DNA of 32,000 nucleotides from assembly GCF_051097895.1 (NCBI RefSeq), contig NZ_CP142525.1:1920001-1952000 (forward strand). Direction: 5' to 3'. The translations under genes and the position numbers were made by a program. This document shows positions 15,243-31,033 of the stretch, piece after piece. This DNA is from Psychrobacter sp. HD31. Lineage in GTDB: Bacteria > Pseudomonadota > Gammaproteobacteria > Pseudomonadales > Moraxellaceae. The notes beneath the pieces are model-generated. The model was not told the DNA's origin, ran no database searches, and worked only from the letters and a program-made list of their open reading frames with translations. Position 1 is the first letter of the stretch; each line of letters opens with the position of its first letter.

Positions 15243-16565
15243 TTACCAACCATCTCTTTGCTCAATAATTTGTGAAATACCATCTGGTTGGTTTTGTGGG
15301 GTTGGCATACTAGGCTGATAGCCGTGATTTAAAGGCGTAGTGTTTATAATCTGGTTATAAAACTTTTGCCCCGCACGTCCATTGGCTGGAAATATACCAT
15401 GCTGTTGCTGGTAGTCTTGAATAGCACCACGAGTGGCATCTCCAATAATGCCATCAACTGCACCAATATCATACCCAGCATCTAGCAATGCTTGTTGAAT
15501 TTCTCGTGCTTGTCGACGACCAATACCTGGATCATCCGTTGGCCAAGGTGTTTTGAAACCAATGTTAATGGCATCTTCTTTTTCTATTAAATGCGATAGT
15601 TGAGCAATACCAAGGGCATAGTTTTCTGATGCATTGTAAGAATAAAAAGTATCAAAGTTTTTACCAACTAAAAATGCTGGTCCCTTGCTACCTGCTGGCA
15701 ATAATAAGCCAGCTGAAGTTAAATTGTAGGGTAGTGGACTTCCGTCTGGCAATGTTAAACCTTGGTTACGCCAATGGCTTATTGGTTTTTTATTTCGGCG
15801 GTTGCTTGTTGCCCAATAACCTTCTGGTAGTTTTACCTCATAGCCCCAAGGCTCACCACTGCGATAACCCCGTTTGGCTAAAAAGTTAGCAGTTGATGCC
15901 AATGCGTCTGGCACACTATTAACTAAGTCTTTACGACCATCGCCATTAAAATCGACTGCAAGCTCTAAAAAGGTGCTTGGCATAAACTGTGTTTGCCCAA
16001 AAGCGCCAGCCCATGAGCCCGTCATATCATGTGCATAAATATCGCCATTTTGTACAATTTTTAATGCGTTGGCATACTCACCACGAAAGTAAGACTGACG
16101 GCGGTCAAAACAAGATAGTGTTGCTAATGAACTAAATAGGTCTTTTTTACCAAGTGTTTGCCCAAAGTTAGACTCAACTCCCCAAACGCCAAGTACATCC
16201 TCGGCTTTTACACCATAACGTGCTTCAATACGGCGCAAAGTATCCGCCCATTGGTATTTTGCTGCGATGCCATCTTGTACACGCTCTTCATCTACCAAGG
16301 CAGAAACATAATCCCAAACATCTTTTTGAAACTCGGGTTGATAGTTGAGTGACTGAATAACACTTGGGTCTGGCTTACTTGGGCGGTACTGCTCAAATGT
16401 GCTAGATGATACGCCTTTAAATTTGCTGGTAGACTTTAAATTGGTTAAACATTGTTGAAACTGAGAGTTTGAAAGATAAGGCGCTTCTGGCTTAGCGGCA
16501 TGTGCCAGTGTGCTGGCGGTAACCATAGCCAAAGTAGAAGAAGCAATAAGAGTGAAAAAACGCAT
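15243..16565 (-). CDS. lytic murein transglycosylase (MltB/Slt35-like) with C-terminal peptidoglycan-binding domain
   Basis: 440-aa ORF with a signal peptide and the catalytic-Glu context GVWGVESNFG. The C-terminal PG_binding_1-like repeat is LLDAGYDIGAVDGIIGDATRGAIQDYQ. Confidence 0.9.
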   Translation of the reverse strand: MRFFTLIASSTLAMVTASTLAHAAKPEAPYLSNSQFQQCLTNLKSTSKFKGVSSSTFEQYRPSKPDPSVIQSLNYQPEFQKDVWDYVSALVDEERVQDGIAAKYQWADTLRRIEARYGVKAEDVLGVWGVESNFGQTLGKKDLFSSLATLSCFDRRQSYFRGEYANALKIVQNGDIYAHDMTGSWAGAFGQTQFMPSTFLELAVDFNGDGRKDLVNSVPDALASTANFLAKRGYRSGEPWGYEVKLPEGYWATSNRRNKKPISHWRNQGLTLPDGSPLPYNLTSAGLLLPAGSKGPAFLVGKNFDTFYSYNASENYALGIAQLSHLIEKEDAINIGFKTPWPTDDPGIGRRQAREIQQALLDAGYDIGAVDGIIGDATRGAIQDYQQQHGIFPANGRAGQKFYNQIINTTPLNHGYQPSMPTPQNQPDGISQIIEQRDGW

Positions 16566-16662
16566 GGTAAGCCTTTAATTTTTATTAATTGTGTTTAATG
16601 CTACCTGAATGTTTATAAAAATTAAAGGCAAAAAGTGAGGCTGGTTACACAATCAAACATCT
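16555..16662 (+). repeat. 108-bp direct repeat, copy a (functional 5' end plus upstream region of the transglycosylase gene)
   Basis: Ungapped hand alignment to 17731-17838 gives 95 of 108 identical positions. The repeat covers the first 3-4 codons (minus-strand ATG at 16565-16563) and about 97 bp upstream. Confidence 0.85.
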
Positions 16663-16758
16663 TGGTATGGTTTGCTTGATTTGTAGAGGTTTTTAGAATT
16701 TTTAAATGTTAGCTGTTTTTATGGCGATGTTGGTTTGTATTTTGAATAAACTTTTTAT

Positions 16759-16820
16759 TTTGCATACAAAATACTTGCTTTTATTTGCGTGTTGGAATAA
16801 CATACTTTGCATACAAAATA
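16759..16820 (+). promoter_or_regulatory. candidate operator: 15-bp perfect direct repeat TTTGCATACAAAATA x2
   Basis: Exact copies lie at 16759-16773 and 16806-16820, 47 bp apart. The first sits within the inverted repeat TATTTTG-CATA-CAAAATA. A weaker third unit (TTTGCGTGTTGGAATA) lies between them. Confidence 0.35.
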
Positions 16821-17006
16821 GGTCGTATTATTCAACCATCAACTTAAAACATGAACTTAAAACAATAATCTGAATACTCAATAAAAAGACACTCATTTAA
16901 ATGCCACTCGTGGCAATATCAACATGGTACTCATTGTGAGTGTGTCATCGTTTATCTAGATTATTATAAAAGTGATAAGACAAATTAAAATATACGTTTG
17001 AAATTC

Positions 17007-17044
17007 CCTCTAACTCCTCCTTGAACAAGGGGGAGAATTTTTTT
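17007..17044 (+). repeat. small hairpin repeat (CCCTCTAACTC...CAAGGGGGAG) with T-run, terminator-like
   Basis: CCCTCTAACTCCTCCTTGAACAAGGGGGAG is followed by AATTTTTTT. It shares CCCTCTAACTC and CAAGGGGAG with 22163-22190. No plus-strand gene lies upstream for it to terminate. Confidence 0.5.
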
Positions 17045-17093
17045 GATATATTTTTTTGTTTACTTGCTAATGTTACAAACACAAGGAAATAAA

Positions 17094-17504
17094 ATGAAAC
17101 ACTTGATTAATAACACCATGAATGCAATCACACCTATGGCTATTATGGTGGGGCGTGCATTGCTAGGGCTGTATTTTGTGCTGCCTGGCATACTAAAGTT
17201 TGTGGCTTGGGATATGCATGTCGCACTGATGGAACAACATGGTATGGTATTTATTCCATTCTTTTTAGCATCAGCCGCAATTATTCAAATTATTGCAGGG
17301 TTAGGCATCATTTTTAATCGTTACACTGCTATTTTTTCATTGATTTTGGCAGGCTTGGTTATTGTTATCAACATAAACCTGCATGATTTTTGGAACGTGG
17401 CAACAGAGCAACAAAATTTTGTGAAAAACATGGCAATCTTTGCAGGTTTATTGGTGCTTGCTGGCTTTAGTTGGAAAGAAAAAAATAAAGCGTTATCTTC
17501 ATAA
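17094..17504 (+). CDS. DoxX family inner-membrane protein
   Basis: The ATG at 17094 follows AAGGAAA, while the track start at 17043 is a TTG. The protein is about 136 aa with four hydrophobic helices. Size and pattern (LLGLYFV.PG..KF) are typical of DoxX. Confidence 0.75.
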   Translation: MKHLINNTMNAITPMAIMVGRALLGLYFVLPGILKFVAWDMHVALMEQHGMVFIPFFLASAAIIQIIAGLGIIFNRYTAIFSLILAGLVIVININLHDFWNVATEQQNFVKNMAIFAGLLVLAGFSWKEKNKALSS

Positions 17505-17730
17505 AGTAATACAAAAGTTAGCGTAGCGTGGGTTACATTTTACTAAACGCACGCTACAGCTAGCTTTATATTTATTCTTTTATCATCTTAATCACATTGT
17601 CCAATTGTTCTGCACCTTCCTAGCCAAGCTACTTTGCCAAATTGAGTCTAAAATTTTATTTATCAAATGCATTAGTTCATTTATTTTTGTCAGCCGACAA
17701 ACCATCTGTACTATTAGCTTTTTCATGGTT

Positions 17731-17838
17731 AAAAAACGCATGGTAATCCTTTAGTTTTTATTCATTGGGATTACTGTTACTTGAATGGTTATAAAAATTA
17801 AAAGTAAAAAGTGAGGCTGGTTACATATTCAAACATCT
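17731..17838 (+). repeat. 108-bp direct repeat, copy b (relic 5' end plus upstream region of the transglycosylase gene)
   Basis: 88% identical to 16555-16662. It retains the minus-strand ATG CGT TTT (17741-17733) but then runs into unrelated sequence. This gives a 49-codon ORF at 17592..17741 (-), MRFLTMKKLIVQ..., with no transglycosylase homology. Confidence 0.85.
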
Positions 17839-18012
17839 GCTAAAAAAAGTGTGAGATGTGCTTTTTTATTAACCTTAACCCTAACCTTGAGTTTGACTAT
17901 GGTTATCTTAATGGTTGTGGTAGAGTAAACGAGACCTAAATAGCCAAATACTTTTATCTATTCAGTGGCATTTAAAAATCTAATAATCACAAAACGTGAC
18001 TAGGGAGAGGTG

Positions 18013-18666
18013 ATGAATATTATAGATGTTGCAAAAAATCGATACAGCACTAAATCTTATAACCCAAACAAAAAAATCTCGCCAGAAGACTTTGCCAAAA
18101 TTAAGGAGCTGATTCGGCTTAGCCCCTCTAGCTTAAACTTACAGCCTTGGCAGTTTATAATTGCCGATAACGAAGTCGCTAAAGAACGAGTGCTTAAAGG
18201 GTTCCCTGCTAGGTATGCCTTTAATGCAGAAAAAATAAAAGCGGCCTCGCATGTGGTGATTTACTGTGGTAAAACCAGCATTGATGATGCGCATGTTTGC
18301 AATATTGCGAATGCAGAAGAACAAGATGGTCGATTTAATTTGGCGGACGATAAAAGTCTTCGTCAGGGGCACATTCAGCGTTTTGTCGAGCACCACAGAA
18401 ATGAACTAAAGGACGAGCGTGAATGGAATACCAACCAGTTGTATTTAAACATTGGTATGGTGCTGCTTGGTGTGGCTGCAATGGGTATTGATGCCACCGC
18501 AATGGAAGGGGTAGACTGTGGCGCATTAAATAAAGAGTTTGATTTGGCAAAGCAAGGCTATCAAGCCGTGGCGGTAATGGCGTTTGGTTACCGAGCGGAT
18601 GATGACTTTAATGCCAAATTACCAAAATCACGTTTGCCAACCGAGCAAATTTTTGTCAATGCATAA
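18013..18666 (+). CDS. nfsB: oxygen-insensitive NAD(P)H nitroreductase (NfsB/NfnB family)
   Basis: Colinear with E. coli NfsB as I recall it: RYSTKSY, LSPSSLNLQPWQFI, DGRF, LPKSRLP. The ATG at 18013 follows GGGAGAGG. Confidence 0.85.
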   Translation: MNIIDVAKNRYSTKSYNPNKKISPEDFAKIKELIRLSPSSLNLQPWQFIIADNEVAKERVLKGFPARYAFNAEKIKAASHVVIYCGKTSIDDAHVCNIANAEEQDGRFNLADDKSLRQGHIQRFVEHHRNELKDEREWNTNQLYLNIGMVLLGVAAMGIDATAMEGVDCGALNKEFDLAKQGYQAVAVMAFGYRADDDFNAKLPKSRLPTEQIFVNA

Positions 18667-18688
18667 GTGTGTAGTTGAAGTGCCTGTG

Positions 18689-20083
18689 CTAGCAACATAC
18701 ATTTTCAATATAAGCTCTTAACCACTCTAAAAACTCATCACTGGTGCGTGTGACATTTAATCGGATATGATGTTTAAAACGCCCTGTGGGTGAAAACAAA
18801 TGTCCTGGAGCAACCAACCATTGTTCTTTATGAGCTTGTAAGGCAAGTTCTGCGGTATCGATTATGCCCTCATTACTCAAATCAAGCCACATAAATAGAC
18901 AAGGGTTGCTGTCTGTTGGCGGAGTGAAGCCATGTTTTTTAAGACGTTTAAGTAAGGTATGATGTGCTTTTGCCAATCGAGACTGTATGTTTTTTTCATG
19001 TTTGGCAAAGGCAGGGTCTTGCCAAATGTAAGTAATGGTTCGTTCTGTCATCTCTGGGCAAGTCATATTACTCAGCATTTTTTGGCGTAAGACCGCTTGC
19101 AAATGCTGTTCAGGGCAAACCGTCAAGGCAATCCGCCAATTACCACCAAGCACTTTTGACACCCCATTTAGATAAAACACCCGTTTAAAACCATCTAAGG
19201 TGGCATAGCGCACCATGGTTTTGTCTGGATTAAAGGCACTATACACATCATCTTCCACCACATAACAATCATACTTTTCCATCAATTGCAGTACGGCAAA
19301 TACACTGGTCGGTGTGATGTTGTAAGAGGTTGGGTTGTGTAATGTGGTATTGGTAATATAAAGCTTGGGTTGATAATGCTGAAGAATGGCTTCTAGTTGT
19401 TCTAAATCTAGGCCATCAGCAGTGCGAGTAACGCCAACCACATTCATCCCTAAGTTTTGCAAACTACCAATAATCCAAAACCACGTTGGGTCATCGACGA
19501 CAACCGTATCACCCACCTGACACATGGCTTGAACAATGGTCACAATACCTGCAGACACTCCTGTGGTGGTAATCATCATTGAGGGATGTGCCGAGATACC
19601 CATATCGTCGAGCTGACGAGCAAACTGCTCACGCAATCCATGATAGCCTTGCAAATGCCCATATTCATAGACATAGTCTAGCTCATTGATGACTTTGCGA
19701 CTGGCGGAGAGCATGTGTTTTTTGGGCATCAGCCAATCAGGAGGCAACAAACCACTGCCCGAAGCACGTGTGCGAGGTAAGTCATTAAACAAATGAGTGA
19801 GTAGCCAACCCGTATCTAACACATTATTGGTCATCGCTGGCAGGGCAACCGCATGGGTCTTTTGCATCTCCTTGGGTTCACGCACATAATAGCCTGCCCC
19901 TTGACGGGCATAGATATAACCTTGGGCAACAAGGGTGTCATAGGCTTGGCTAACGGTATAAGGAGATACGCCAAGCTTGTTTGCCATATCTCGTACCGAG
20001 GGTATGCGTGTGTTGGGGTGATAAACCTGCCATTGGATTTTTTCAATGATGTGAGTTTGGACGAGCTGTGTTTTGGTGGTCAT
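18689..20083 (-). CDS. MocR-subfamily GntR transcriptional regulator (wHTH + class I aminotransferase-like domain)
   Basis: 464 aa. The N-terminal GntR wHTH is IPSVRDMANKLGVSPYTVSQAYDTLVAQGYIYARQGAGYYV. It is followed by an aminotransferase-fold domain of about 350 aa with a PLP-lysine context (NGVSKVLGG). Confidence 0.9.
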   Translation of the reverse strand: MTTKTQLVQTHIIEKIQWQVYHPNTRIPSVRDMANKLGVSPYTVSQAYDTLVAQGYIYARQGAGYYVREPKEMQKTHAVALPAMTNNVLDTGWLLTHLFNDLPRTRASGSGLLPPDWLMPKKHMLSASRKVINELDYVYEYGHLQGYHGLREQFARQLDDMGISAHPSMMITTTGVSAGIVTIVQAMCQVGDTVVVDDPTWFWIIGSLQNLGMNVVGVTRTADGLDLEQLEAILQHYQPKLYITNTTLHNPTSYNITPTSVFAVLQLMEKYDCYVVEDDVYSAFNPDKTMVRYATLDGFKRVFYLNGVSKVLGGNWRIALTVCPEQHLQAVLRQKMLSNMTCPEMTERTITYIWQDPAFAKHEKNIQSRLAKAHHTLLKRLKKHGFTPPTDSNPCLFMWLDLSNEGIIDTAELALQAHKEQWLVAPGHLFSPTGRFKHHIRLNVTRTSDEFLEWLRAYIENVCC

Positions 20084-20313
20084 TTAATAATCCCAGTTAG
20101 TGAGCTTTTTTTAGCTTTATCAGGTGTTCATCATAAGTTTGAATATACACTAATCTAGACTTTATAAGATTTAAAAAAATATAGTTCTAAAGTTTGCTAA
20201 CTAAGTTTGTATTCTTTTATGTTAAATCTGTTTTCTATTTTTAAATAGGCAAGCATAGTTCTTATGCACTTTCTATGAGTCAAATAGACAATAAAGTGCA
20301 AAGCTAGCAAGAA

Positions 20314-20378
20314 AACTGTACTGAAAAAATAACCGCAACAGTTTATAAAAAATAGTCCTTAACTGTATCGGTACTGTT
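20314..20378. promoter_or_regulatory. candidate MocR operator / eamA promoter region (AACTGT repeats)
   Basis: AACTGTA occurs at 20314-20320 and 20361-20367. TACTGTT is at 20372-20378 and the inverted AACAGTT at 20337-20343. All lie 60-125 bp upstream of the EamA start. Confidence 0.3.
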
Positions 20379-20437
20379 TTAGTCTACCATGCTATTTTAG
20401 CTACTCAAAATATTCATATACGACTTGAGAAACTCCC

Positions 20438-21292
20438 ATGCCACTCAAACATACTCTTCTTGCCATTCTCGTCACCATTATTTGGGGCGTGAATTTTACC
20501 TTTATTAAATGGGGGCTTGAGAGTTTTGACCCCATCATGCTGACGGCAATGCGGTTTATTTTCACAGCAATACCGCTGATATTTTTTGTTAAACGACCTA
20601 AATTTAATCTGGTATTTATGACCTATGCGGTGGGTACATTTGCCATTCAATATGGATTGTTGTTTTATGCTATGCAACTGGGTGCGTCCGCAGGGTTGTC
20701 TGCATTGATATTGCAAATACAAGTGTTTATCACCTTATTTTTAGCGTATCTGTTATTAGGAGAAAGTATTAACCGCTGGCAGATAATTGGACTAATAATA
20801 GCGGTGCTTGGTCTTGGTTTGATTGGTATCAATGTTGGTGGAGATATGCCATTGCTCGGATTTATCTGTATCTTAATGTCAGCAACTGGCTGGAGCTTTG
20901 GTAACATTGCTTCAAAAAAATTAATGGGAAGTTCACCTCTGTCTTTAGTGGCCTGGGGTGGTCTGATTGTGGCGGTGTTGATGTCTATTCTGTCATGGTT
21001 CTTAGAGCCAAATACTTGGACAGTAAGCACATTTAGCGAGGCAAGCATCAAATCTTGGTTGTCTTTAAGCTTTATTGTGTATGTTTCAACGTTAATGGGA
21101 TTTGTGATGTGGACATTTTTACTACAAAACAACAGTGCTTCTAAAGTGATGCCATTTGCACTGCTTGTGCCTATTATTGGTATGTTTGCTTCGGTTGTTT
21201 TAACTGGTGAAACCATGACATGGTGGAAAGTAGTTGCCATGGTACTGATTATGTTGGGTTTGGGGGTAAGTAGGAAGCCTGTTACTGACTAA
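20438..21292 (+). CDS. EamA/RhaT (DMT superfamily) transporter
   Basis: 284 aa, about 10 predicted TM helices in two EamA-like halves. The gene is divergent from a MocR regulator, a commonly described pairing. Confidence 0.88.
   Translation: MPLKHTLLAILVTIIWGVNFTFIKWGLESFDPIMLTAMRFIFTAIPLIFFVKRPKFNLVFMTYAVGTFAIQYGLLFYAMQLGASAGLSALILQIQVFITLFLAYLLLGESINRWQIIGLIIAVLGLGLIGINVGGDMPLLGFICILMSATGWSFGNIASKKLMGSSPLSLVAWGGLIVAVLMSILSWFLEPNTWTVSTFSEASIKSWLSLSFIVYVSTLMGFVMWTFLLQNNSASKVMPFALLVPIIGMFASVVLTGETMTWWKVVAMVLIMLGLGVSRKPVTD
21155..21282 (+). repeat. 128-bp direct repeat, copy a (functional 3' end of the EamA gene)
   Basis: Ungapped hand alignment to 22857-22984 gives 115 of 128 identical positions. 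The first 34 bp are identical. Confidence 0.85.
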
Positions 21293-21303
21293 TTTTTATA
21301 CAG

Positions 21304-21483
21304 ATGGGAACACAATATCCGATTTTGCTGACCTTCATCAGTCCTATTCATCCACGCTCATACCATGCTCATGTGGATAAATTGGGTCTACAAGTGATTA
21401 AAAACTTTACCTTTAATGATAATAACTATTATGAGCTGGGGTATGATACGAGTGTGTCTATTTTTCAGTTAGGCATAAAATAA
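21304..21483 (+). CDS. 59-codon ORF immediately upstream of the DUF711 gene (uncertain; possibly a gene fragment)
   Basis: ATG at 21304, TAA at 21481-21483, so it falls below the 60-aa cut-off of the ORF track. It translates to MGTQYPILLTFISPIHPRSYHAHVDKLGLQVIKNFTFNDNNYYELGYDTSVSIFQLGIK. There is no convincing SD. Its stop abuts the DUF711 SD (AAGGAA). Confidence 0.25.
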   Translation: MGTQYPILLTFISPIHPRSYHAHVDKLGLQVIKNFTFNDNNYYELGYDTSVSIFQLGIK

Positions 21484-21494
21484 GGAATAGAGTA

Positions 21495-22826
21495 ATGAAC
21501 AATATTATCAATGCAGAAAGCTATAAAAATCAGAAACTATGCCGAGTGCGAGCCGTTACTGCCTTTATCACCTTACCGAAAGACAGTAACCTTTGGTACG
21601 ATATTCTAGCCGAAGGAAAACGCCAATGTGATACCCTTGCTATCGCCTTACAACAAGCAGGTTATCATGTGCAAAGCCTACGCCTTGTGACCAATCCATT
21701 TGGAGAGTACCTCAACACAAGCGACATTAACACTGCTAAAAAAAGTTTGGCACAGATTACCCAACATCTTGACGAACTGAACAAAAATAATGAGTTGCGT
21801 ATCCGTTTTGCAATTGGCGAGGCATGTACCGCTCATGAGATTGCCTTACTACCCGAGCTTATCAAAGATTATGGCGATTTGTGTAATGCTTGTGTCAACG
21901 TGCCGATGAATGAGCATGGGTTTTTACAACATGAGTTGATTGAGCAGTCGGTGCAAGCTATCCAACAGATTGCGGATATCACGCCCAATGGCGAGGGCAA
22001 TTTTAACTTTACCGTCAATTTTAATTGCGATAGCTATATTCCCTATTTTCCTGCCAGTTATCATCGCCCAAAACAAGCAAACGACAAGGCTAATGTAGAT
22101 AAGGCAGTCGTGGTGGGCTTAGAAACGCCTGATTTATTGGTTGATGTGTTGCAGTCAGTATCCCCTCTAACTCTCCCTTATCAAGGGGAGGTCTGTGAAA
22201 ACCAAACATCTAACAACGTTGATAACTGTGCTGATAACCACGCTGAATTTATGCAACAGGCATACACCGCTATGCACACAGCCTTGCAATATCATGTGGA
22301 TAAAGTGGTTGGCGTGATTGACAATACCTCTCTTGAGCAAGGCTGGCAGTTTATTGGCATGGATACCTCCGCCGCACCGTCCAAGGATTGTGCTAGTATG
22401 GTTGAGGTGTATCAACTGCTGGGTGTACCCTATTTTGGGGCAAGTGGTACGGTTGAAGCTTCGGCATTATTAACCAAGGTGTTTAAGTCGGTAAACAATG
22501 TTCAGCAGGTTGGTTTTTCTGGGTTGATGTTGGCGGTTACCGAGGATACAGGACTTGCCAAAGCGACAATCAATCAGCAGTTTGACATCAAAGACTTGCT
22601 GACTTATAGCAGTGTCTGTGGCATTGGATTAGATACGGTGCCGATTGAGGGCGACACCCCAAGTGAAAAAATCTGTGCCATCATTCGAGACACTGGCACC
22701 ATGGCGTTTAGGCTTAATAAACCGCTAACGGTACGACTGTTTCCTGTACCGAAGCTAACCGCAGGCGAGATGACCAGCTTTGACAGTGATGATTTGTGTA
22801 ATTGTGCTGTGTTGGTGGTACCTTAG
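21495..22826 (+). CDS. DUF711 / UPF0210 family protein (PF05167-like), function unknown
   Basis: 443 aa. The C-terminal half (FSGLMLAVTEDTGL...SSVCGIGLDTVPIEGDTPSEKICAIIRDTGTMAF..NKPLTVRLFPVP) is colinear with UPF0210 proteins of Firmicutes as I recall them (LSGAFIPVSEDEGM...CSVGLDMIAIPEDTP...). AAGGAA SD upstream. Confidence 0.8.
   Translation: MNNIINAESYKNQKLCRVRAVTAFITLPKDSNLWYDILAEGKRQCDTLAIALQQAGYHVQSLRLVTNPFGEYLNTSDINTAKKSLAQITQHLDELNKNNELRIRFAIGEACTAHEIALLPELIKDYGDLCNACVNVPMNEHGFLQHELIEQSVQAIQQIADITPNGEGNFNFTVNFNCDSYIPYFPASYHRPKQANDKANVDKAVVVGLETPDLLVDVLQSVSPLTLPYQGEVCENQTSNNVDNCADNHAEFMQQAYTAMHTALQYHVDKVVGVIDNTSLEQGWQFIGMDTSAAPSKDCASMVEVYQLLGVPYFGASGTVEASALLTKVFKSVNNVQQVGFSGLMLAVTEDTGLAKATINQQFDIKDLLTYSSVCGIGLDTVPIEGDTPSEKICAIIRDTGTMAFRLNKPLTVRLFPVPKLTAGEMTSFDSDDLCNCAVLVVP
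22163..22190 (+). repeat. intragenic copy of the small hairpin repeat (CCCTCTAACTC...CAAGGGGAG)
   Basis: CCCTCTAACTCTCCCTTATCAAGGGGAG lies inside the DUF711 CDS and encodes ..SPLTLPYQGEV... It shares an 11-mer plus the stem arm with 17007-17035. Confidence 0.45.
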
Positions 22827-22856
22827 CCTTAATGGGAGGTAATTCTCAAGCCTTTT

Positions 22857-22994
22857 TTTGCACTGCTTGTGCCTATTATTGGTATGTTTGTTTCGATTGT
22901 TTTAACTGGCAAAGCCATAACATGGTAGAAGGTAGTTGCCATGGTTCTGATCATGTTGGGTTTAGTGGTGAGTAGGAAGCCTGTAAAGATATAA
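22857..22994 (+). pseudogene. relic 3' end of the EamA transporter gene (128-bp repeat copy b plus its own stop)
   Basis: In the EamA frame it reads FALLVPIIGMFVSIVLTGKAITW*KVVAMVLIMLGLVVSRKPVKI*. The live gene reads FALLVPIIGMFASVVLTGETMTWWKVVAMVLIMLGLGVSRKPVTD*. There is an internal TAG at 22926-22928 and no upstream coding continuation. Confidence 0.85.
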
Positions 22995-23365
22995 AAAAGC
23001 CCATTTATAGTTAAAGAACTATGTCAAATAGCAAAAAATTGCTCAAACATATCTCCTCCTAAATTGTACTCCTATAACTACCAATACAGTTTGTTAATAT
23101 GGCCTAAGAGTGTATCGGGATTATCAATGGTTTTTTGGCTATGATATAACTCACTTATTAGAAGCCAATATGCTGTAAACCTGAGATTGAAAATCTGAAA
23201 AGATGCTCACACCAATCACTATTTAATGTACTGAGTCAGAATAGTGCTGAGTTTTATCTACTAAGGGCAAAAAGCATGCGTGTTTTTAAATTTGGTAATT
23301 AAATCACAAGAATTTTACGAGTTAATAGGGCATATGTTTGTTGCCTTAATATAATAGGAATAACC

Positions 23366-24058
23366 ATGAAAACGATAGGTATTTTAGGTGGTATGAGCTA
23401 TGAATCAACCGCTAACTATTACACGCTCATCAATAAAAAAGTCAATGAACGACTTGGCAAAAATCACTCAGCAAAACTGCTGATTGCCAGTGTCGATTTT
23501 GAAGAAGTGGTTCAGCAACAAAAATCTGGCGATTGGCAAGCGTCTAGCAATCTGCTTGCTCAACAGGCAAAAAATCTGCAATCATCAGGTGCTGAAGCGG
23601 TGTTATTATCTACTAATACCATGCACAAGGTGGCGGATGGTATACAAAATGCCATTGATGTTCCCTTTTTACACATTGTTGACTGTATGGCAGATGAATT
23701 ACTGGCAAATGGTATCGAAACCGTTGGTTTGTTAGGTACAGCATTTACCATGCAAGATGGTTTTTATCACCAAGTGCTGGAAAACCGAGGAATCAAAGTG
23801 GTTACGCCAGATTTAGAGATTCAGCCAGAAATTCATCGTATTATTTTTGATGAGCTGTGTCATGGTACAGTGTTAGACACTTCTTGTGACGTTTATATCC
23901 AAGCCATTGAGCAACTAAAAGACAACCAAGCTCAAGCCGTGATTTTAGGCTGTACAGAAATCGGTTTAATGATTCACCAAGATAACAGTCCGTTGCCTGT
24001 GTTTGATAGCACCCTTGTGCATGTAGAAAAAGCAGTTGAGTGGATTTTAGGTGAGTAG
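23366..24058 (+). CDS. ygeA: aspartate/glutamate racemase family protein (YgeA-like broad-specificity amino-acid racemase)
   Basis: 230 aa, colinear with E. coli YgeA as I recall it: MKTIGILGGMSYEST, STNTMHKVAD, LGCTEIGL. Confidence 0.85.
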   Translation: MKTIGILGGMSYESTANYYTLINKKVNERLGKNHSAKLLIASVDFEEVVQQQKSGDWQASSNLLAQQAKNLQSSGAEAVLLSTNTMHKVADGIQNAIDVPFLHIVDCMADELLANGIETVGLLGTAFTMQDGFYHQVLENRGIKVVTPDLEIQPEIHRIIFDELCHGTVLDTSCDVYIQAIEQLKDNQAQAVILGCTEIGLMIHQDNSPLPVFDSTLVHVEKAVEWILGE

Positions 24059-24071
24059 GTAATACGCTGAT

Positions 24072-24111
24072 AAAAAAAGCATAAGCTTGGTAAATTTAAG
24101 CTTATGCTTTT
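24072..24111. terminator. bidirectional rho-independent terminator between convergent genes
   Basis: Stem GCATAAGCTT (24079-24088) pairs with AAGCTTATGC (24098-24107), flanked by A7 and T4 runs. Confidence 0.7.
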
Positions 24112-24135
24112 GGGTATTTATCCGCTAAAAAATGG

Positions 24136-25347
24136 TTATGCTAATAGCGTTTTAATCCGTTTAATGGCTTCTTGGCTTTCTTCTACACTGGCTACTAAAG
24201 CAAGACGAACATAGCCTTTACCAGGGTTGTATCCATTAACCTCTCGTGATAAATACCGCCCAGCTAGTGCGTAGATATTTACCTTTTCTAATAATTCTTT
24301 GACGAAGTGTTCATCATCATTATTAAATTTATCGGGTACTTTTACCCAAAAATAAAAACTGGCATCTGGGTGGCGTAGCTCTAATAAGTCGCCAAGTTCT
24401 TGCATCCATAAAGCAAATTTTTCGCGATACAGTACACGGTTGGCCTCGACATGCTCTTCATCTTGCCATGCTTTAATAGAGGCATATTGATGATGAATTG
24501 GCATAGCACAACCTTGGTAGGTGCGGTATTGCAGGTAAGGTTTTAGTAAGTTTGCATCACCGGCAATAAAACCAGAGCGTAAACCTGGTAAGTTAGAGCG
24601 CTTAGACAATGAGTGAAAAACCACGCAATTTTTATAATCATTTCTTTCTAACTTTGCACATACTTCTAGTAAGCCAACAGGTGGGGCATCAAAATACAGC
24701 TCGCTATAGCATTCATCACTGGCGATGATAAAGTTGTATTTGTCTGACAATGCTATCAGTTCTTTCCAATCGTTTTCTGATAGCACTGAGCCTGTCGGGT
24801 TGTTTGGGCTGCATACAAATAGCAGTTGTGTTCGCTCCCAAATCTCTGCAGGTACTTGGTGATAGTCTGCTTTAAAGTTGTTTTCTGGCGTACAAGGCAC
24901 ATAATAGGGCTCGGCTTCTGCCAAAATTGCTGCGCCTTCGTATATTTGATAAAACGGATTTGGCATGACAATAACCGGCTTTTGGTTTGGTGTGTCGTCA
25001 GTGCATGTTGTATCAATACAAGCTTGTACAAAGCTAAAAATGGCTTCGCGTGTGCCCATAACAGGGATAACTTCTGATGTTGGGTTAATATCATTTAAGT
25101 TAAAACGCTGTTTTAGCCAATCGGCAATCGTTTGTGATAACTCGGGTATGCCACCAGTTGTTGGGTAGTTTTGAACTTTGCCTGCATGAGCAATGAGTTC
25201 ATCTAATACAAATTGTGGTGGCAAATGTTTGGGTTCACCAATGCCAAGTTTAATTGGCGCATAATCACTGGCGGGGGTTATATCAGCCAGTAAGGTTGCC
25301 ATTTTAGAAAATGGATAAGGATGAAGGAGATTAAGGTTTGAGTTCAT
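24136..25347 (-). CDS. dapC: class I aminotransferase, succinyldiaminopimelate transaminase (DapC) type
   Basis: The ATG at 25347 follows GAGGA, while the track start at 25359 is a TTG. The N-terminus contains LHPYPFSKMATLL and the PLP-lysine context is SLSKRSNLPGLRSG. The gene lies near glnD, as the dapC-type gene does in Pseudomonas (from memory). Confidence 0.75.
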   Translation of the reverse strand: MNSNLNLLHPYPFSKMATLLADITPASDYAPIKLGIGEPKHLPPQFVLDELIAHAGKVQNYPTTGGIPELSQTIADWLKQRFNLNDINPTSEVIPVMGTREAIFSFVQACIDTTCTDDTPNQKPVIVMPNPFYQIYEGAAILAEAEPYYVPCTPENNFKADYHQVPAEIWERTQLLFVCSPNNPTGSVLSENDWKELIALSDKYNFIIASDECYSELYFDAPPVGLLEVCAKLERNDYKNCVVFHSLSKRSNLPGLRSGFIAGDANLLKPYLQYRTYQGCAMPIHHQYASIKAWQDEEHVEANRVLYREKFALWMQELGDLLELRHPDASFYFWVKVPDKFNNDDEHFVKELLEKVNIYALAGRYLSREVNGYNPGKGYVRLALVASVEESQEAIKRIKTLLA

Positions 25348-25428
25348 GGCTATCCTCAAAAAAGCGTCAGTCAGAATTTGTGTAAAATTTCAGCTAGTTT
25401 ATCAGAAATTGCTTTGATAAAGAAAAAT

Positions 25429-25461
25429 AAAAAGACGGCTTACCAATAGCAGCCGTCTTTT
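25429..25461 (-). terminator. rho-independent terminator after the DASS transporter gene
   Basis: Stem AGACGGCT (25433-25440) pairs with AGCCGTCT (25451-25458). On the minus strand it is followed by CTTTTTATTTTT. Confidence 0.65.
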
Positions 25462-25497
25462 AAAATGAGTTAGTAAAGTTTTATGGTTCAAAGGGAG

Positions 25498-26958
25498 TTA
25501 ATAATGACCCAAAAACTTCCACCAAACGAGACCAGCGCTAATCCATACGACTAGGTTAACAACGCTCATGATAAAACCAACACGCCACCATTCACCCAGT
25601 GATGCATACCCTGAGTTAAATATTACAGGCGCAGTGCCGGTTGCATAATGGGTTAGGGTCATCATAATATTGCCAGCTGCTGCCATAATCAATGCAAATA
25701 ACATTGGCGGTGCGCCAAGGCTTAAACCAACGGTATAAAATGCAGCAAACATGGCGGTGATGTGTGCGGTGGTACTGGCAAAAAAGTAATGCACATACAT
25801 ATACACCAAGGTCAAAATAACCATTGCCATGGTTGTGCTAACACCCGTAGCAGCAATAGCTGCCTGAATATTGCCAGAAAACCACTCAATAAGCCCAAGT
25901 TTATTTAAAAAGCCTGCCATCATAATTAATGCAGAAAACCAAACGATGGTATCCCATGCAGAACGTTCTTTAAGAATGTCTTCCCAACTTAGAACACCTG
26001 TAATAAGTAAAGCAGATAAGCCGATTAATGCGGTGGTTGCAGAGTGCAATTTTAAAGCACTAATGCCTGTTAACATCTCTGGAATGTTTGCCCAAAAAAG
26101 CAACATTAAGGTAAAAATTGCCAGCATGATTTTTTCATTTTTAGAGATTCGCCCCATTTTTTTTAGATTATTGGTAGCAAAGGTTTTTGCATCTGGGGTT
26201 TCTTTAATTTCTGGTTTTGCCAGCAGATAGATAACCAAAGGCATTAGTAAAATACATAGCATACCTGGGATAAACATGGAGACAGCCCATGTTGTCCAAG
26301 ACAGTTGGATTTCACTACCTGTTGCTTTATTGATTAAATCTACAACCAACGGGTTAGGTGCGGTTGCGGTAATAAACATCCCAGAAGTGATGGGGTTTGA
26401 ATGATAATTAACCAAAGCGAGGTATTTACCAATTTTGCTTTGTGTGCCATTTTCTGGTGTTGAGTCAAAGTTATGGGCAATTGACTTCATAATTGGGTGG
26501 ATGATACCACCACCACGTGCGGTGTTTGATGGCGTAATTGGTGCAATCATTAACTCAGAGATGGCAAGTGAGTACCCAATCCCCAAGCTTTTTTTGCCAA
26601 ATAGTGCAATAAAATAATAGGCAATGCGGTTACCTAATCCAGTTTTTATCAAACCACGAGAAATCATGATGGCAATACCAATTAACCAAATCAAAGGACT
26701 CGAAAAGCTAGAAAGTACGTCGGTTATGGCACCTTTTGGGCTGTCGTTAGTGACACCAGTCACAGCAACTAAAGTCATAGCGATGATGGCAATTGCCCCA
26801 ATTGGTAAAGCTTTGCCAATAATGGCCGCAATGGTGGCAATAAAGATGGCAAGCAGATGCCATGCATTTGGGTCAACGCCCACAGGTACAGGGATAATAA
26901 ACCAAATGAGTAAACCGATAATCATGGATATAATTGTTGGGATAAGCTTAAACGGCAT
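25498..26958 (-). CDS. DASS/SLC13-type anion (di/tricarboxylate) transporter
   Basis: 486 aa and highly hydrophobic, with more than 12 TM segments. Two-repeat architecture with the hairpin-type motifs PSNTARGG and HYATGTAP, typical of the CitT/2-oxoglutarate-malate translocator-like anion permeases. A perfect AGGAGG SD lies upstream. Confidence 0.82.
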   Translation of the reverse strand: MPFKLIPTIISMIIGLLIWFIIPVPVGVDPNAWHLLAIFIATIAAIIGKALPIGAIAIIAMTLVAVTGVTNDSPKGAITDVLSSFSSPLIWLIGIAIMISRGLIKTGLGNRIAYYFIALFGKKSLGIGYSLAISELMIAPITPSNTARGGGIIHPIMKSIAHNFDSTPENGTQSKIGKYLALVNYHSNPITSGMFITATAPNPLVVDLINKATGSEIQLSWTTWAVSMFIPGMLCILLMPLVIYLLAKPEIKETPDAKTFATNNLKKMGRISKNEKIMLAIFTLMLLFWANIPEMLTGISALKLHSATTALIGLSALLITGVLSWEDILKERSAWDTIVWFSALIMMAGFLNKLGLIEWFSGNIQAAIAATGVSTTMAMVILTLVYMYVHYFFASTTAHITAMFAAFYTVGLSLGAPPMLFALIMAAAGNIMMTLTHYATGTAPVIFNSGYASLGEWWRVGFIMSVVNLVVWISAGLVWWKFLGHY

Positions 26959-27355
26959 ATTAACCTCCTATTTATTAATATTGAGTGTTATTGATAGGGT
27001 AATAGTTGTAAGTATCTGGTTAAGGGTTAAATAGTATTAATATCAGCTGAGTTATTATTTTGGCTGGTTAATTAGTTGACGATTAATAAGATACCTAAGC
27101 TATCTTTGCTATATTTTTGTTATCTTTTTTGGTTTTTAATGATTTTTATTTTTGGTTTTATTATAGAACTGTGGCAGGGATAGTCAACTGTTAAAAGTAC
27201 AATGAGACGGGAAAAATTATACAATTGTTTAACAAGGACAATGTGAGGTGTTTTGTATTTATTTTAGCTGTTTTGTCAACAGCCAATGTGATGGCACTGC
27301 TTATGAACAGACCATCAACAAAGGCAATGTAATACAAAGGGCAACTAATTTATGG

Positions 27356-30055: not shown

Positions 30056-30195
30056 AAAATATTCTTATTTAGGTTGTAATAATAAACTAAAGTTATCAAA
30101 AATAGTTAATCTACAGTGTAGCAGAAAAATTAGTTAAATCTAAGAGTTAGTCATTTATCAATGAACGACCAAAAAAGCTGGCAAAATTTTTAGGT

Positions 30196-30226
30196 ACAAA
30201 AAAACCACCTAATTAAGGTGGTTTTT
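30196..30226 (-). terminator. rho-independent terminator after map
   Basis: Stem CCACCT (30205-30210) pairs with AGGTGG (30216-30221). A T-run follows on the minus strand (the A-run at 30196-30204 on plus). Confidence 0.7.
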
Positions 30227-30241
30227 GTCAGCCTAGCAAGG

Positions 30242-31033
30242 CTAGGTATTTAAAAAGCTTAAGTCTTCTTCTGGACGCGTGGTAAATACCTCACAACCGT
30301 TATCGGTCACCATTAGGGTATGTTCCCATTGGGCAGATAATTTACGGTCCTTGGTAATGGCTGTCCATTTATCAGGCATAATTTTAGTTTTCCATGTACC
30401 TTGGTTAATCATAGGTTCGATGGTAAATGTCATACCAGATTTTAGCTGCATACCCGTGCCAGCTCTGCCATAGTGCATTACTTGTGGTTCATGATGGAAC
30501 TCATTGCTAATACCGTGTCCACAAAATTCACGAACAATACCAAAACGCTCTGGCTCAACCACTTTTTGGATAGCCGCACCAATGTCGCCTAAATAAGCAC
30601 CATCTTTTACAACACTCATACCTGCATATAACGCCTTTTGAGCAACATCGCAAATGCGTTTTGCCATAATCGAGCCTTCACCAATAATCCACATTTTTGA
30701 AGTATCGCCATAATAGCCGTCTTTAATGACCGTTACATCAATGTTAATGATATCGCCATCTTTTAAGATTTTGTCATCACTTGGGATACCGTGGCAAACC
30801 ACATGGTTAACTGAGGTACAAATAGATTTTGGAAAACCATTGTAGTTGAGTGGTGCGGGGATAGCGCCCTGAACATTGACAATATAGTCATGCGCAAGTT
30901 TATCTAATGCTTCTGTTGTAATGCCTGCTTTAACGTGTTCATCCAGCATTAATAATACGTCTGCGGCAAGCTTGCCTGCAACACGCATTTTTTCTATAGC
31001 ATCAGGTGCCAAAATTAGATTTTTTGTTGTCAT
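30242..31033 (-). CDS. map: type I methionine aminopeptidase
   Basis: 263 aa with metal-ligand contexts DVTVIKDGYYGDTS, FCGHGI, TIEPM and WEHTLMVT. Confidence 0.96.
   Translation of the reverse strand: MTTKNLILAPDAIEKMRVAGKLAADVLLMLDEHVKAGITTEALDKLAHDYIVNVQGAIPAPLNYNGFPKSICTSVNHVVCHGIPSDDKILKDGDIINIDVTVIKDGYYGDTSKMWIIGEGSIMAKRICDVAQKALYAGMSVVKDGAYLGDIGAAIQKVVEPERFGIVREFCGHGISNEFHHEPQVMHYGRAGTGMQLKSGMTFTIEPMINQGTWKTKIMPDKWTAITKDRKLSAQWEHTLMVTDNGCEVFTTRPEEDLSFLNT

What the first reader, a model, noticed from the sequence alone, without database searches (positions are those of the whole stretch)
21155..22994. DUF711 gene carried on a 1.57-kb insert at the 3' end of the EamA transporter gene, bracketed by a 128-bp imperfect direct repeat that rebuilds the gene end
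The last 128 bp of homology in the intact EamA gene (21155-21282) recur at 22857-22984. My hand alignment is ungapped and gives 115 of 128 identical positions, and the first 34 bp are identical. Read in the EamA frame, the downstream copy is a recognisable C-terminus carrying a TGG>TAG stop. It also has its own, different, last three codons and stop codon. It is therefore a decayed relic 3' end, while the upstream copy completes the live gene. The 1574 bp in between (21283-22856) hold only a 59-codon ORF and the DUF711 gene. I see no integrase, transposase or terminal inverted repeats. This is the footprint expected when incoming DNA brings its own surrogate copy of the target gene's end. Three mechanisms could produce it: site-specific integration into a gene 3' end, Campbell-type single crossover of a small circle, or homology-facilitated illegitimate recombination. 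What is unusual is the very small single-gene cargo with no recombinase.
Basis: partly seen in the sequence, partly recalled or inferred. Interest (0 to 1): 0.72.

Follow-up and report, generated by a model that had tools for sequence, protein, structure and literature searches.

The report
Recombination scar that added DUF711 gene
The 128-bp repeat is real and marks where a piece of another bacterium's version of the same operon was spliced in behind a transporter gene by ordinary recombination, not by a mobile element; this kind of scar is known from laboratory work and is only moderately interesting.

Summary
Bases 21155-21282 and 22857-22984 match at 115/128 without gaps (chance about 1e-43). 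The window is Psychrobacter sp. HD31.

The closest relative, MAG GCA_002747095.1, is collinear with the window at 79-89% and has the empty site: EamA runs straight into the racemase and ends in KPVKI*, like the relic.

The 1.57-kb insert is not a mobile element. orf59 is the last 55 codons of a 211-216-aa gene ("G"). In relatives G lies between EamA and the racemase, and in one relative it is followed directly by DUF711. The insert is therefore a truncated piece of an alternative version of the same MocR-controlled operon.

I found no recombinase, terminal inverted repeat, tRNA or plasmid match.

The most likely mechanism is recombinase-free capture. The EamA 3' end served as a short homology arm that was duplicated, by Campbell-type single crossover or an HFIR variant.

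Two unexpected findings:
- The live EamA is chimeric. Its first 717 nt have a different ancestry from its last 128 nt, and the switch falls at the repeat start.
- A second scar of the same form lies 4 kb upstream: a 111-bp repeat flanking a DoxX gene, with an empty site in the same relative.

It is a natural member of a known kind; interest is moderate.

The parts
18689..20083 (-). MocR/GntR-type regulator (HTH plus aminotransferase-like domain), transcribed divergently from the operon
   Evidence: Pfam GntR + Aminotran_1_2. NCBIfam MocR-like families. 88.5% nt identity to L001.
20312..20374 (+). Conserved operator/promoter element 'up1' (..ACTGTACTG..ACAGTTT..AACTGTATCGGTAC) ahead of the first gene of the operon
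   Evidence: Conserved ahead of the first operon gene in five lineages (alignment A1). Assignment as a MocR operator is inferred.
20438..21154 (+). 5' 717 nt of the live EamA gene. Its ancestry is discordant with the flanking genes.
   Evidence: Nt identity is 72.2% to L001, 72.4% to L004 and 71.1% to L003, while flanking genes are 79-89% to L001. Quartet sites are 14/17/40, against the species grouping. Bootstrap support for win+L001 is 7.5%.
21155..21282 (+). Repeat copy A, the last 128 nt of homology of the live EamA gene, with local (L001-like) ancestry
   Evidence: 115/128 identical to copy B. 85.2% to L001 against 67.2% to L004. win+L001 bootstrap 100%.
21283..21303 (+). Left junction: 21 nt of unknown origin that supply the new last codons (..V)TD and the stop of the live EamA
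   Evidence: Unique in the window. Homology to gene G starts at about 21304. The orthologue and the relic end in KI* instead.
21304..21483 (+). orf59, the 3' remnant (last ~55 codons) of gene G, which encodes a 211-216-aa protein of unknown family
   Evidence: 73% identity to residues 156-210 of the 211-aa L006 protein, E 2e-28. 84% nt identity to the L011 gene. tblastn and alignment A2. No Pfam or NCBIfam hit.
21495..22826 (+). Intact DUF711/UPF0210 gene (443 aa), the only complete gene in the insert
   Evidence: Pfam PF05167, E 8e-82. PDB 2HA9 UPF0210. 23 synonymous against 10 non-synonymous differences to sister strain L005. Closest homologue is 73% identical and follows G in L006/L007.
22827..22856 (+). 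30 nt of donor DNA downstream of DUF711, ending at the right junction
   Evidence: No similarity to EamA or to L001. The junction has a possible microhomology, AAGCCTTTT against EamA ATGCCATTT (read).
22857..22994 (+). Repeat copy B plus the ancestral tail and stop: the relic of the former EamA 3' end, carrying TGG>TAG at 22927
   Evidence: 81.7% identity to L001 10718-10859, running through the stop codon. The KPVKI* tail is identical to L001. Its 8 private changes are all transitions.
22995..23365 (+). Spacer between the relic and the racemase. It holds a second, old operator-like element 'up2' at about 23060-23121.
   Evidence: Similarity to the 'up' elements of L003, L004 and L011. Alignments. 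49% identity to up1, so it is not a recent duplicate.
23366..24058 (+). Asp/Glu racemase-family gene, the resident right-hand neighbour
   Evidence: Pfam Asp_Glu_race. NCBIfam. Syntenic in L001.
16552..17838 (.). Second scar of the same form. 111-nt direct repeats (16552-16662 and 17728-17838, 87% identical) bracket a 1065-nt insert with one DoxX gene (17094-17504). The repeat covers the first 14 nt of the SLT gene plus 97 nt upstream.
   Evidence: the repeat finder D2. Sequence and ORFs. Single copy in L001, i.e. an empty site. DoxX Pfam hit.

Best explanation
This is a recombination scar, not a mobile element.

Starting state (inferred): an ancestor of Psychrobacter sp. HD31 had EamA followed by an intergenic spacer and the racemase, as its closest known relative still does.

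Incoming DNA (inferred): DNA from a related lineage carried a different version of the same MocR-controlled operon, in which EamA is followed by gene G and a DUF711 gene.

Joining (inferred): the last ~128 bp of EamA were the only good homology between incoming and resident DNA and served as the single homology arm. The other end was joined illegitimately. One way to get this is a single (Campbell-type) crossover of a re-circularised fragment. Another is a variant of homology-facilitated illegitimate recombination in which the joint falls upstream of the arm. Either way the arm is duplicated:
- The upstream copy stays fused to the gene body. It gains two new codons and a stop from the junction, so the transporter stays intact.
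- The downstream copy keeps the old last codons and stop, is no longer translated, and decays.

Consequences: gene G was cut down to its last 59 codons (orf59) at or after the event. DUF711 is intact, under purifying selection, and now sits behind EamA with no predicted terminator between them. It is probably read from the MocR-regulated promoter.

Shown:
- the repeat;
- the empty site in a relative;
- the relic's ancestral tail;
- the allelic origin of the insert;
- the absence of recombinase genes or inverted repeats;
- presence of the arrangement in sister strains;
- purifying selection on DUF711.

Inferred:
- that homologous pairing of the 128 bp drove the integration;
- the exact intermediate;
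- the route of DNA entry.
For: 1. Empty site. L001/L002 (MAG GCA_002747095.1) are collinear with window 10106-32000 at 79-89% and have EamA284 followed directly by the racemase. The relic aligns to the L001 gene end through the stop codon, and both end in KPVKI*.
2. Allelic origin of the insert.
- orf59 matches the C-terminus of a 211-216-aa protein (E 2e-28).
- That gene follows EamA in L003 and L004.
- It precedes the racemase in L011-L013 and L014.
- It is followed directly by DUF711 in L006/L007.
3. No mobility apparatus.
- The ORFs are housekeeping genes syntenic with L001.
- There are no inverted repeats at the ends.
- There is no tRNA.
- There is no plasmid match.
- There is no Rfam match.
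4. The two copies are sisters of local ancestry. They share 14 derived states against L001, so the duplication is younger than the HD31/L001 split.
5. Spatial pattern of the differences. Ten of 11 polarised sites fit one reciprocal crossover between 21262 and 21264 (P = 0.067), and the divergent tail lies on the expected side.
6. A second scar of the same geometry lies 4 kb away (111-nt repeats, DoxX cargo, empty site in L001). Its differences form a reciprocal mosaic (at most 3 runs among 13 sites, P about 0.01).
7. Laboratory precedent. In E. coli, 56 of 60 integrations of a one-arm substrate were single crossovers of re-circularised molecules that duplicated 109-950 bp of the arm (PMC3240628).
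8. Age and function. L005 and L009 show the arrangement in sister strains from other samples. DUF711 differs from L005 at 23 synonymous and 10 non-synonymous sites.
9. Frequent homologous exchange in this population. Differences between strains inside DUF711 cluster at 22283-22586.
Against: 1. No donor genome was found. The closest DUF711 is 73% identical, the closest G fragment 80%, and the closest EamA 78%.
2. It cannot be shown that copy A came in with the insert. Copy A has only 3 private changes. The relic's 8 private changes are all transitions (6 GC>AT), which looks like simple decay of an in-situ duplicate.
3. The reciprocal-mosaic test for this locus is marginal (P = 0.067).
4. A simple Campbell event does not predict that the live gene's ancestry switches exactly at the repeat start. 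That needs an extra event, a pre-existing chimeric allele, or a more complex single event.
5. Natural transformation delivers single strands, so a circular intermediate is not the obvious route in a Moraxellaceae bacterium (own knowledge).
6. The relic differs between sister strains more than the neighbouring spacer does: 9 of 63 nt against about 3.4%. Gene conversion between the copies may therefore have blurred the original pattern.
Confidence: 0.55

Rival explanations
1. Block replacement followed by repair from the relic. One long foreign segment (promoter region, a whole foreign EamA, G, DUF711) replaced the front of the resident operon. It left only the last 138 nt of the resident EamA as a relic. 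Later the 3' end of the incoming EamA, together with the start of G, was lost and rebuilt by copying the neighbouring relic (gap repair or gene conversion). This made copy A a copy of copy B and truncated G.
For: It explains why the ancestry of the live gene switches at the repeat start (change-point 705-719 of the gene; repeat starts at 717). A tract copied from the relic cannot extend beyond the relic.
The promoter element and the 5' 717 nt group with L004, whose locus has up-EamA-G. G-DUF711 adjacency occurs in L006 from the same study.
The relics of sister strains carry live-like states at different sites, which is compatible with ongoing conversion between the copies.
Against: It needs two rare events. 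Copying between a foreign and a resident 3' end that would have been only about 65-70% identical is unlikely for RecA-type recombination (identities).
The rooted tree cannot tell whether HD31 or the MAG carries the replaced 5' part.
The patch at the repeat start is not the best conserved stretch of the gene.
Confidence: 0.2
2. Homology-independent duplication-insertion. A foreign fragment (3' part of G plus DUF711) was joined at both ends by illegitimate recombination at two staggered positions 128 bp apart, for example at a replication fork or on sister chromosomes. The target segment was therefore duplicated, with identical copies at birth, and the copies then diverged.
For: Both copies are of local ancestry and share 14 derived states.
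The relic's private changes look like neutral decay: all are transitions, including a nonsense change.
The left junction truncates a gene and contains 21 nt of filler.
In the last 53 nt, the relic inferred for the common ancestor of HD31 and L009 differs from the live copy at only 2 sites.
Against: It would be a coincidence that the inserted fragment begins with gene G, which follows EamA in relatives. It is more natural that the fragment was guided there by EamA homology.
The second scar shows a clustered reciprocal mosaic that random decay does not predict (P about 0.01).
The live copy's private changes pre-date the strain split while the relic had none in the same stretch.
It does not explain the ancestry switch either.
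Confidence: 0.17
3. Remnant of a site-specific integrative element that targets the EamA 3' end and carries a replacement gene end. It has lost its integrase, or is mobilised in trans like a cis-mobilisable element.
For: The geometry is that of islands inserted in gene 3' ends: a direct repeat, with the live end upstream and the displaced end downstream. The first 34 nt of the repeat are identical.
Against: No recombinase gene lies in the insert or within the collinear 22 kb.
The left end cuts a cellular gene that belongs to this operon in relatives.
The new gene end is 21 nt of junction, not an EamA end.
The unit was not found at other sites, on plasmids or in other genomes.
The second scar duplicates an unrelated sequence (a promoter region), so there is no common target or core.
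Confidence: 0.04
4. Old local tandem duplication of the EamA end that pre-dates the relatives, with later unrelated changes.
For: The copies are 10% diverged.
Against: The closest relative has an empty site.
The copies are far closer to each other than to the orthologue: 14 shared derived states.
The intervening DNA has homologues at the corresponding place in other lineages.
Confidence: 0.02

Closest known systems
Single-crossover (Campbell-type) integration of re-circularised one-arm DNA, and homology-facilitated illegitimate recombination (HFIR)
   Same: The insert has homology to the chromosome on one side only, and no dedicated recombinase is involved. The product carries a direct duplication of part of the homology arm. 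In the E. coli study these duplications were 109-950 bp (PMC3240628), which brackets the 128 and 111 bp seen here. HFIR was first described in naturally competent Acinetobacter, Streptococcus pneumoniae and Pseudomonas stutzeri (references listed in PMC5361080).
   Different: Classical HFIR deletes recipient DNA and does not duplicate the anchor. The laboratory duplications came from plasmid circles delivered by conjugation. Here the route of entry is unknown, the repeats are 87-90% identical rather than identical, and the live gene also changes ancestry at the repeat boundary.
Displaced ('orphan') 3' ends in Rhs, CDI and T6SS effector-immunity arrays
   Same: A new 3' module is joined through homology in the conserved upstream part. 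The old 3' end is pushed downstream and kept as a non-translated remnant. HFIR has been proposed as the mechanism (PMC5361080).
   Different: Those are polymorphic-toxin loci, where retained immunity genes are under selection. Here the gene is a DMT/EamA transporter, the cargo is a DUF711 gene, and nothing suggests a toxin-immunity function.
Minimal mobile elements of Neisseria (different gene cassettes between the same conserved flanking genes, exchanged by transformation and homologous recombination; own knowledge)
   Same: Different lineages carry different gene sets at this locus, with no mobility genes:
- EamA313-EamA284;
- EamA-G;
- G alone;
- G-DUF711;
- EamA-G'-DUF711.
The operator element and, where the contigs extend that far, the racemase recur across these versions, but the upstream neighbour differs between lineages.
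   Different: Exchange of a minimal mobile element by double crossover leaves no duplicated flank. Here one flank is duplicated and a cassette gene is truncated.
Integrase-mediated islands and cis-mobilisable elements inserted in gene 3' ends
   Same: There is a direct repeat of the gene end, the upstream copy completes the gene, and the downstream copy is displaced.
   Different: There is no recombinase, no defined element ends and no common core with the second scar. The left junction lies inside a cellular gene.

Membership tests
Integrative element / genomic island at a gene 3' end (including integrase-less cis-mobilisable elements) | Tyrosine or serine recombinase gene inside or next to the element | tested here: not met
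   The insert holds only orf59 and DUF711. Neighbouring genes are housekeeping genes collinear with L001.
Integrative element / genomic island at a gene 3' end (including integrase-less cis-mobilisable elements) | Short identical att core at both ends; element ends defined and cargo genes whole | tested here: not met
   The repeat is 128 nt at 90% identity, with only its first 34 nt identical. The left end truncates gene G to 59 codons.
Integrative element / genomic island at a gene 3' end (including integrase-less cis-mobilisable elements) | The same unit recurs at the same target in unrelated genomes, or on plasmids or phages | tested here: not met
   Found only in sister strains (L005, 97.9%). 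Other DUF711 homologues (73% identity or less) sit in other contexts. No plasmid match. Phage records were not searched.
One-arm recombination product (Campbell-type single crossover / HFIR variant) | Insert bracketed by a direct duplication of a chromosomal segment that is single-copy at the empty site | tested here: met
   L001 has one copy, which aligns to both window copies.
One-arm recombination product (Campbell-type single crossover / HFIR variant) | Incoming DNA carries homology to the target on one side, i.e. it comes from a related locus | tested here: met
   The insert starts with the remnant of gene G, which follows EamA in L003 and L004 and precedes DUF711 in L006.
One-arm recombination product (Campbell-type single crossover / HFIR variant) | The two repeat copies are reciprocal hybrids of a donor and a resident allele | tested here: inconclusive
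   Ten of 11 polarised sites fit one crossover (P = 0.067). In the second scar the mosaic is clearer (P about 0.01). Decay and possible conversion confound the test.
One-arm recombination product (Campbell-type single crossover / HFIR variant) | Illegitimate joint with microhomology on the non-homologous side | tested here: inconclusive
   The right junction reads AAGCCTTTT|TTTGCA against EamA ATGCCA|TTTGCA: 7 of 9 matches with a 3-nt indel, which could be chance.
One-arm recombination product (Campbell-type single crossover / HFIR variant) | Dependence on RecA and on DNA uptake or transfer | not testable with these tools
   Needs genetics in a transformable Psychrobacter.
Transposon / insertion sequence | Transposase, terminal inverted repeats, short (2-15 bp) target duplication | tested here: not met
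   No transposase domain. No inverted repeats at the ends. The duplication is 128 bp.
DUF711 / UPF0210 protein family (the cargo gene) | Full-length match to PF05167 above the gathering score | tested here: met
   275.7 bits against a cut-off of 25, covering residues 13-429. Matches PDB 2HA9, UPF0210 protein SP0239. The function is unknown.
EamA/DMT transporter (the target gene) | Two EamA domains, full length relative to orthologues | tested here: met
   PF00892 matches in two stretches, 130 bits. The protein is 284 aa, as in P0002 and P0004.

The most novel reading that the evidence does not exclude
HD31 and its relatives may gain single genes repeatedly by a recombinase-free route that systematically duplicates about 110-130 bp of the target as a homology arm. 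There are at least two such scars in 32 kb, both absent from the closest relative. These repeat-flanked cassettes could loop out and re-insert by RecA alone, behaving as minimal mobile units. In the same episode the front of the EamA gene may have been swapped for a foreign allele, so that one complex event (template switching, or multi-segment integration of one donor strand) produced a chimeric transporter, a truncated gene, a new gene and a relic.
Probability: 0.15. Interest if true: 0.6.

Novelty: new member of a known kind. Interest (0 to 1): 0.4.

Why it matters
Clear natural footprints of one-arm (homology-facilitated) gene capture are seldom documented outside toxin-immunity arrays. 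Most knowledge comes from engineered substrates.

Here the outcome can be read base by base:
- a transporter gene kept intact by duplication of its last 128 bp;
- a displaced, decaying old end;
- a truncated passenger gene;
- a new gene of unknown function placed under a MocR-type regulated promoter.

A second scar of the same form lies 4 kb away, and the gene's ancestry switches at the repeat boundary. Together these suggest that the process is recurrent in this lineage and that the repeat length reports the stretch of homology that was used.

If a genome-wide scan confirms this, such repeat-flanked single-gene inserts would be a simple marker for recombinase-free horizontal gene gain in naturally transformable bacteria. 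The finding does not bear on the function of DUF711, beyond linking it to an amino-acid-related, MocR-controlled operon.

Tried and rejected
1. Pattern scans of GTDB genomes with EamA and with an alignment of G, and of JGI metagenomes with G, found no relatives.
2. Contexts of more distant racemase homologues (L015, L016) proved unrelated.
3. An exact-sequence look-up of the DoxX protein found nothing on record.
4. Plasmid searches with both inserts found no match.
5. Rfam at a permissive threshold over 16000-24000 found nothing. There are no tRNA genes. Promoter and terminator scans were not above shuffled expectation.
6. I tested whether the repeat start is a recombination hot spot because it is the best conserved patch of the gene. 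It is not: longer identical runs lie at nt 220-239 and 451-470.
7. I tested whether the live EamA is a hybrid of the two tandem paralogues seen in L001. It is not: the EamA313 paralogue has no nucleotide similarity to the window and is only 27% identical to the L003 upstream paralogue.
8. I considered that the operator-like element in the spacer (up2) and up1 are outer repeats of a larger recent insertion. I rejected this because they are only 49% identical.
9. I tried to decide whether HD31 or the MAG carries the replaced EamA 5' part, using distances, quartets and a rooted tree. It remains unresolved.
10. The third indel against L001 (sodium:sulfate symporter gene, about 25348-27362) has no flanking repeat.
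11. A literature search for DUF711 gave nothing on function.

Full report
**Observation.** The repeat is real. The repeat finder gives one two-copy family of 128 nt, 21155-21282 and 22857-22984, at 90% identity and ungapped. My count is 115/128 with the first 34 nt identical. The chance probability, corrected for all offsets in the window, is about 1e-43.

Copy A completes a 284-aa ORF (20438-21292) with two EamA domains. Copy B read in the same frame is a recognisable C-terminus with TGG>TAG, its own last three codons and its own stop. Between the copies lie a 59-codon ORF (21304-21483) and a 443-aa DUF711 gene (21495-22826; PF05167, E 8e-82).

**Source and relatives.** The EamA protein is 100% identical to that of Psychrobacter sp. 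HD31, on a 2.17-Mb contig. The nearest relative in 5.8 billion proteins is a MAG, GCA_002747095.1 (L001; the same locus in L002), at 78% protein identity.

L001 is collinear with window 10106-32000 at 79-89% nucleotide identity. There are a few presence/absence differences:
- An extra EamA-family paralogue (313 aa) lies upstream of EamA284 in L001.
- The 21283-22856 insert is present in the window only.
- A 1.07-kb insert at 16663-17727 is present in the window only.
- A sodium:sulfate symporter gene lies at about 25348-27362 in the window only.

**Empty site and which copy is resident.** In L001 EamA284 is followed after 104 nt by the racemase. The relic aligns to L001 10718-10859 at 81.7%, through the stop codon and a few bases beyond. 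Both end in KPVKI*, whereas the live gene ends in KPVTD*. The first ~60 nt after the relic also resemble the L001 spacer (read). The relic is therefore the former gene end in its old context.

**What the insert is.**
- orf59 is not a gene of its own. It matches residues 156-210 of a 211-aa protein encoded on L006 (73% identity, E 2e-28) and the corresponding part of a 216-aa protein on L011 (84% nucleotide identity). I call this gene G. It has no Pfam or NCBIfam match.
- G is a regular member of this locus in relatives:
  - It follows EamA in L003 and in L004.
  - It precedes the racemase in L011-L013 and in L014.
  - L003 and L014 come from one sample and appear to be two halves of one locus.
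- In L006 and L007 G is followed directly by the closest DUF711 homologue outside sister strains of HD31 (73% identity).

The 1.57 kb is therefore a 5'-truncated fragment of another version of the same operon (EamA-G-DUF711). Homology to G begins at about 21304. The 21 nt at 21283-21303 are of unknown origin and unique in the window. They supply the new codons TD and the stop, so the live gene's end is a junction product and not a recognisable surrogate EamA end.

**No mobility functions.**
- The insert has no recombinase or transposase domain.
- There are no inverted repeats at its ends.
- There is no tRNA in the window.
- There is no plasmid match and no Rfam match.
- The surrounding genes are housekeeping genes shared with L001.

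**Age and state of the parts.** L005, from another sample, is 97.9% identical to 21214-22886 and spans both junctions. L009 is 98-99% identical to 22932-30571 and carries the 3' part of the relic.

DUF711 differs from L005 at 23 synonymous and 10 non-synonymous sites, so it is under purifying selection. The differences cluster at 22283-22586, which looks like a recombination patch.

Polarised with L001, the two copies share 14 derived states. The relic has 8 private changes, all transitions (6 GC>AT), including the nonsense change. The live copy has 3 private changes within the 128 nt and further ones in the 10-nt tail. The duplication is thus much younger than the HD31/L001 split.

L009's relic has the live-copy state at three sites where the HD31 relic differs, plus changes of its own. 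The two relics differ at 9 of 63 nt, against about 3.4% in the adjacent spacer. Fast decay or gene conversion between the copies could explain this; I could not separate the two. I read the positions where the L005 and L009 contigs start and stop as k-mer graph breaks at the repeat. That reading is an inference.

**Unexpected: the live gene is chimeric.** The first 717 nt of EamA are 72.2% identical to L001, 71.1% to L003 and 72.4% to L004. Copy A is 85.2% identical to L001 but 67-70% to the others. Flanking genes are 79-89% identical to L001.
- Three-taxon informative sites are 84/85/61 in the 5' part and 31/8/5 in copy A, with the switch between gene positions 708 and 719. The repeat starts at 717.
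- Quartet sites in the 5' part are 14/17/40, against the species grouping.
- A likelihood change-point falls at 705-716, with a second, slightly higher peak near gene position 39. 12 of 2000 permutations reach the observed value.
- In a rooted protein tree win+L001 has 7.5% bootstrap support in the 5' part and 100% in copy A.
- The operator-like element ahead of the gene is also closest to that of L004.

One of the two lineages has therefore had its promoter region and EamA 5' part replaced. The tree cannot say which. The boundary coincides with the repeat start to within about 10 nt, and that patch is not the best conserved part of the gene. I take this as a hint that the repeat equals the stretch of good homology available between the recombining molecules. 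A simple Campbell event does not predict the coincidence, and it remains the main unexplained point.

**A second scar.** A window-wide repeat search found a 111-nt direct repeat, 16552-16662 and 17728-17838, at 87% identity. It flanks 1065 nt carrying a single DoxX-family gene (17094-17504).

The repeat covers the first 14 nt of the lytic transglycosylase gene (minus strand) plus 97 nt upstream. L001 has one copy that aligns to both, which is again an empty site.

Polarised differences run copy1, copy1, then eight copy2, then three copy1. That is at most 3 runs among 13 sites (P about 0.01). A single reciprocal crossover between two alleles about 10% apart accounts for 11 of the 13 sites, and such clustering is not expected from random decay.

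At the EamA locus 10 of 11 polarised sites fit one crossover between 21262 and 21264 (P = 0.067), and the novel tail lies on the predicted side. In both scars the duplication leaves the adjacent gene or its promoter intact. This would favour survival of such events.

**Mechanism.** I conclude that the structure is a product of host recombination acting on DNA from a related lineage that carried a different version of the operon. The EamA 3' end acted as a single short homology arm and was duplicated.

The closest experimental parallel is an E. coli study of one-arm substrates. There, 56 of 60 integrants were single crossovers of re-circularised, partly degraded molecules, which duplicated 109-950 bp of the arm (PMC3240628). 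The same logic (HFIR) has been proposed for displaced 3' ends in T6SS and Rhs loci (PMC5361080).

I put 0.55 on this class of explanation. The rivals are:
- replacement of the whole operon front by a foreign block, followed by repair from the relic (0.2). It is the only model here that explains the ancestry switch directly, but it needs copying between poorly matched sequences;
- homology-independent duplication-insertion (0.17);
- a degenerate site-specific element (0.04);
- an old local duplication (0.02).

**Function.** DUF711/UPF0210 has a solved structure but no known function, and a literature search gave nothing on function. The gene sits 11 nt after the orf59 stop, with no predicted terminator between EamA and DUF711. 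It is probably co-transcribed from the promoter next to the divergent MocR-type regulator. That is an inference.

**Verdict.** This is a natural example of a known kind of recombination product, made somewhat more interesting by the second scar and by the chimeric target gene.

Noticed in passing
window 16552-17838: A second insert bracketed by an imperfect direct repeat (111 nt, 87% identical; 16552-16662 and 17728-17838). It carries one DoxX-family gene (17094-17504). The repeat covers the start of the SLT-domain gene plus its upstream region, and L001 has the empty site. The differences form a clustered reciprocal mosaic.
   Followed up: partly
window 20438-21154 against 21155-21282: The live EamA gene is chimeric. 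Its 5' 717 nt and the promoter element have a different phylogenetic affinity from its last 128 nt and the flanking genes: equidistant from L001, L003 and L004, with the quartet grouping with L004. The switch falls at the repeat start. Which lineage (HD31 or the MAG) was replaced is unresolved.
   Followed up: yes
window 1043-1092 and 2178-2227: A 50-nt direct repeat (76% identical, with a small hairpin CGAGTTATGCTCG) flanks about 1.08 kb holding two hypothetical ORFs (1181-1564 plus strand, 1700-2158 minus strand; no Pfam or NCBIfam hit). It lies between panE-like and valS genes. It may be a third scar or a duplicated terminator.
   Followed up: no
window 20312-20374 and about 23060-23121; L001 8907-8975, L003 2023-2091, L004 2532-2600, L011 1036-1104: A conserved operator-like element (..TGTACTG..ACC..ACAGTTT..TGTATCGGTAC) precedes the first gene of the operon in five lineages, whatever that gene is (EamA313, EamA327, EamA284 or G). 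HD31 has a second, old copy in the spacer ahead of the racemase. It is probably the binding site of the divergent MocR-type regulator.
   Followed up: partly
window about 25348-27362: A sodium:sulfate symporter family gene (25498-26958, minus strand) lies between the aminotransferase and glnD genes. It is absent from L001 and has no flanking direct repeat.
   Followed up: partly
window 22283-22586 (inside DUF711): About 20 of the 35 differences between HD31 and sister-strain contig L005 cluster in 300 nt (about 7% against about 1% elsewhere). This looks like a recombination patch from a more diverged DUF711 allele.
   Followed up: partly
window 22932-23020 against L009 1-130: The relic and the start of the spacer are unusually variable between sister strains: 9 of 63 nt differ in the relic, and there is a 38-nt indel just downstream. 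The L009 relic carries live-copy states at three sites, which suggests gene conversion between the two repeat copies or rapid decay.
   Followed up: partly
L004 453-2351; L001 9001-9942; L003 2170-3153: The region between the regulator (or other upstream gene) and EamA284 is a hot spot of variation. L004 has an Imm35-domain gene and small ORFs there. L001 and L003 each have an extra EamA-family gene, and those two are only 27% identical to each other.
   Followed up: no
window 21495-22826: The closest named DUF711 homologues (61-65% identity) come from animal-associated Neisseriaceae, Pasteurellaceae and Moraxella oblonga, not from typical Psychrobacter. This fits a patchy, horizontally spread gene and an animal-associated habitat for HD31.
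   Followed up: no
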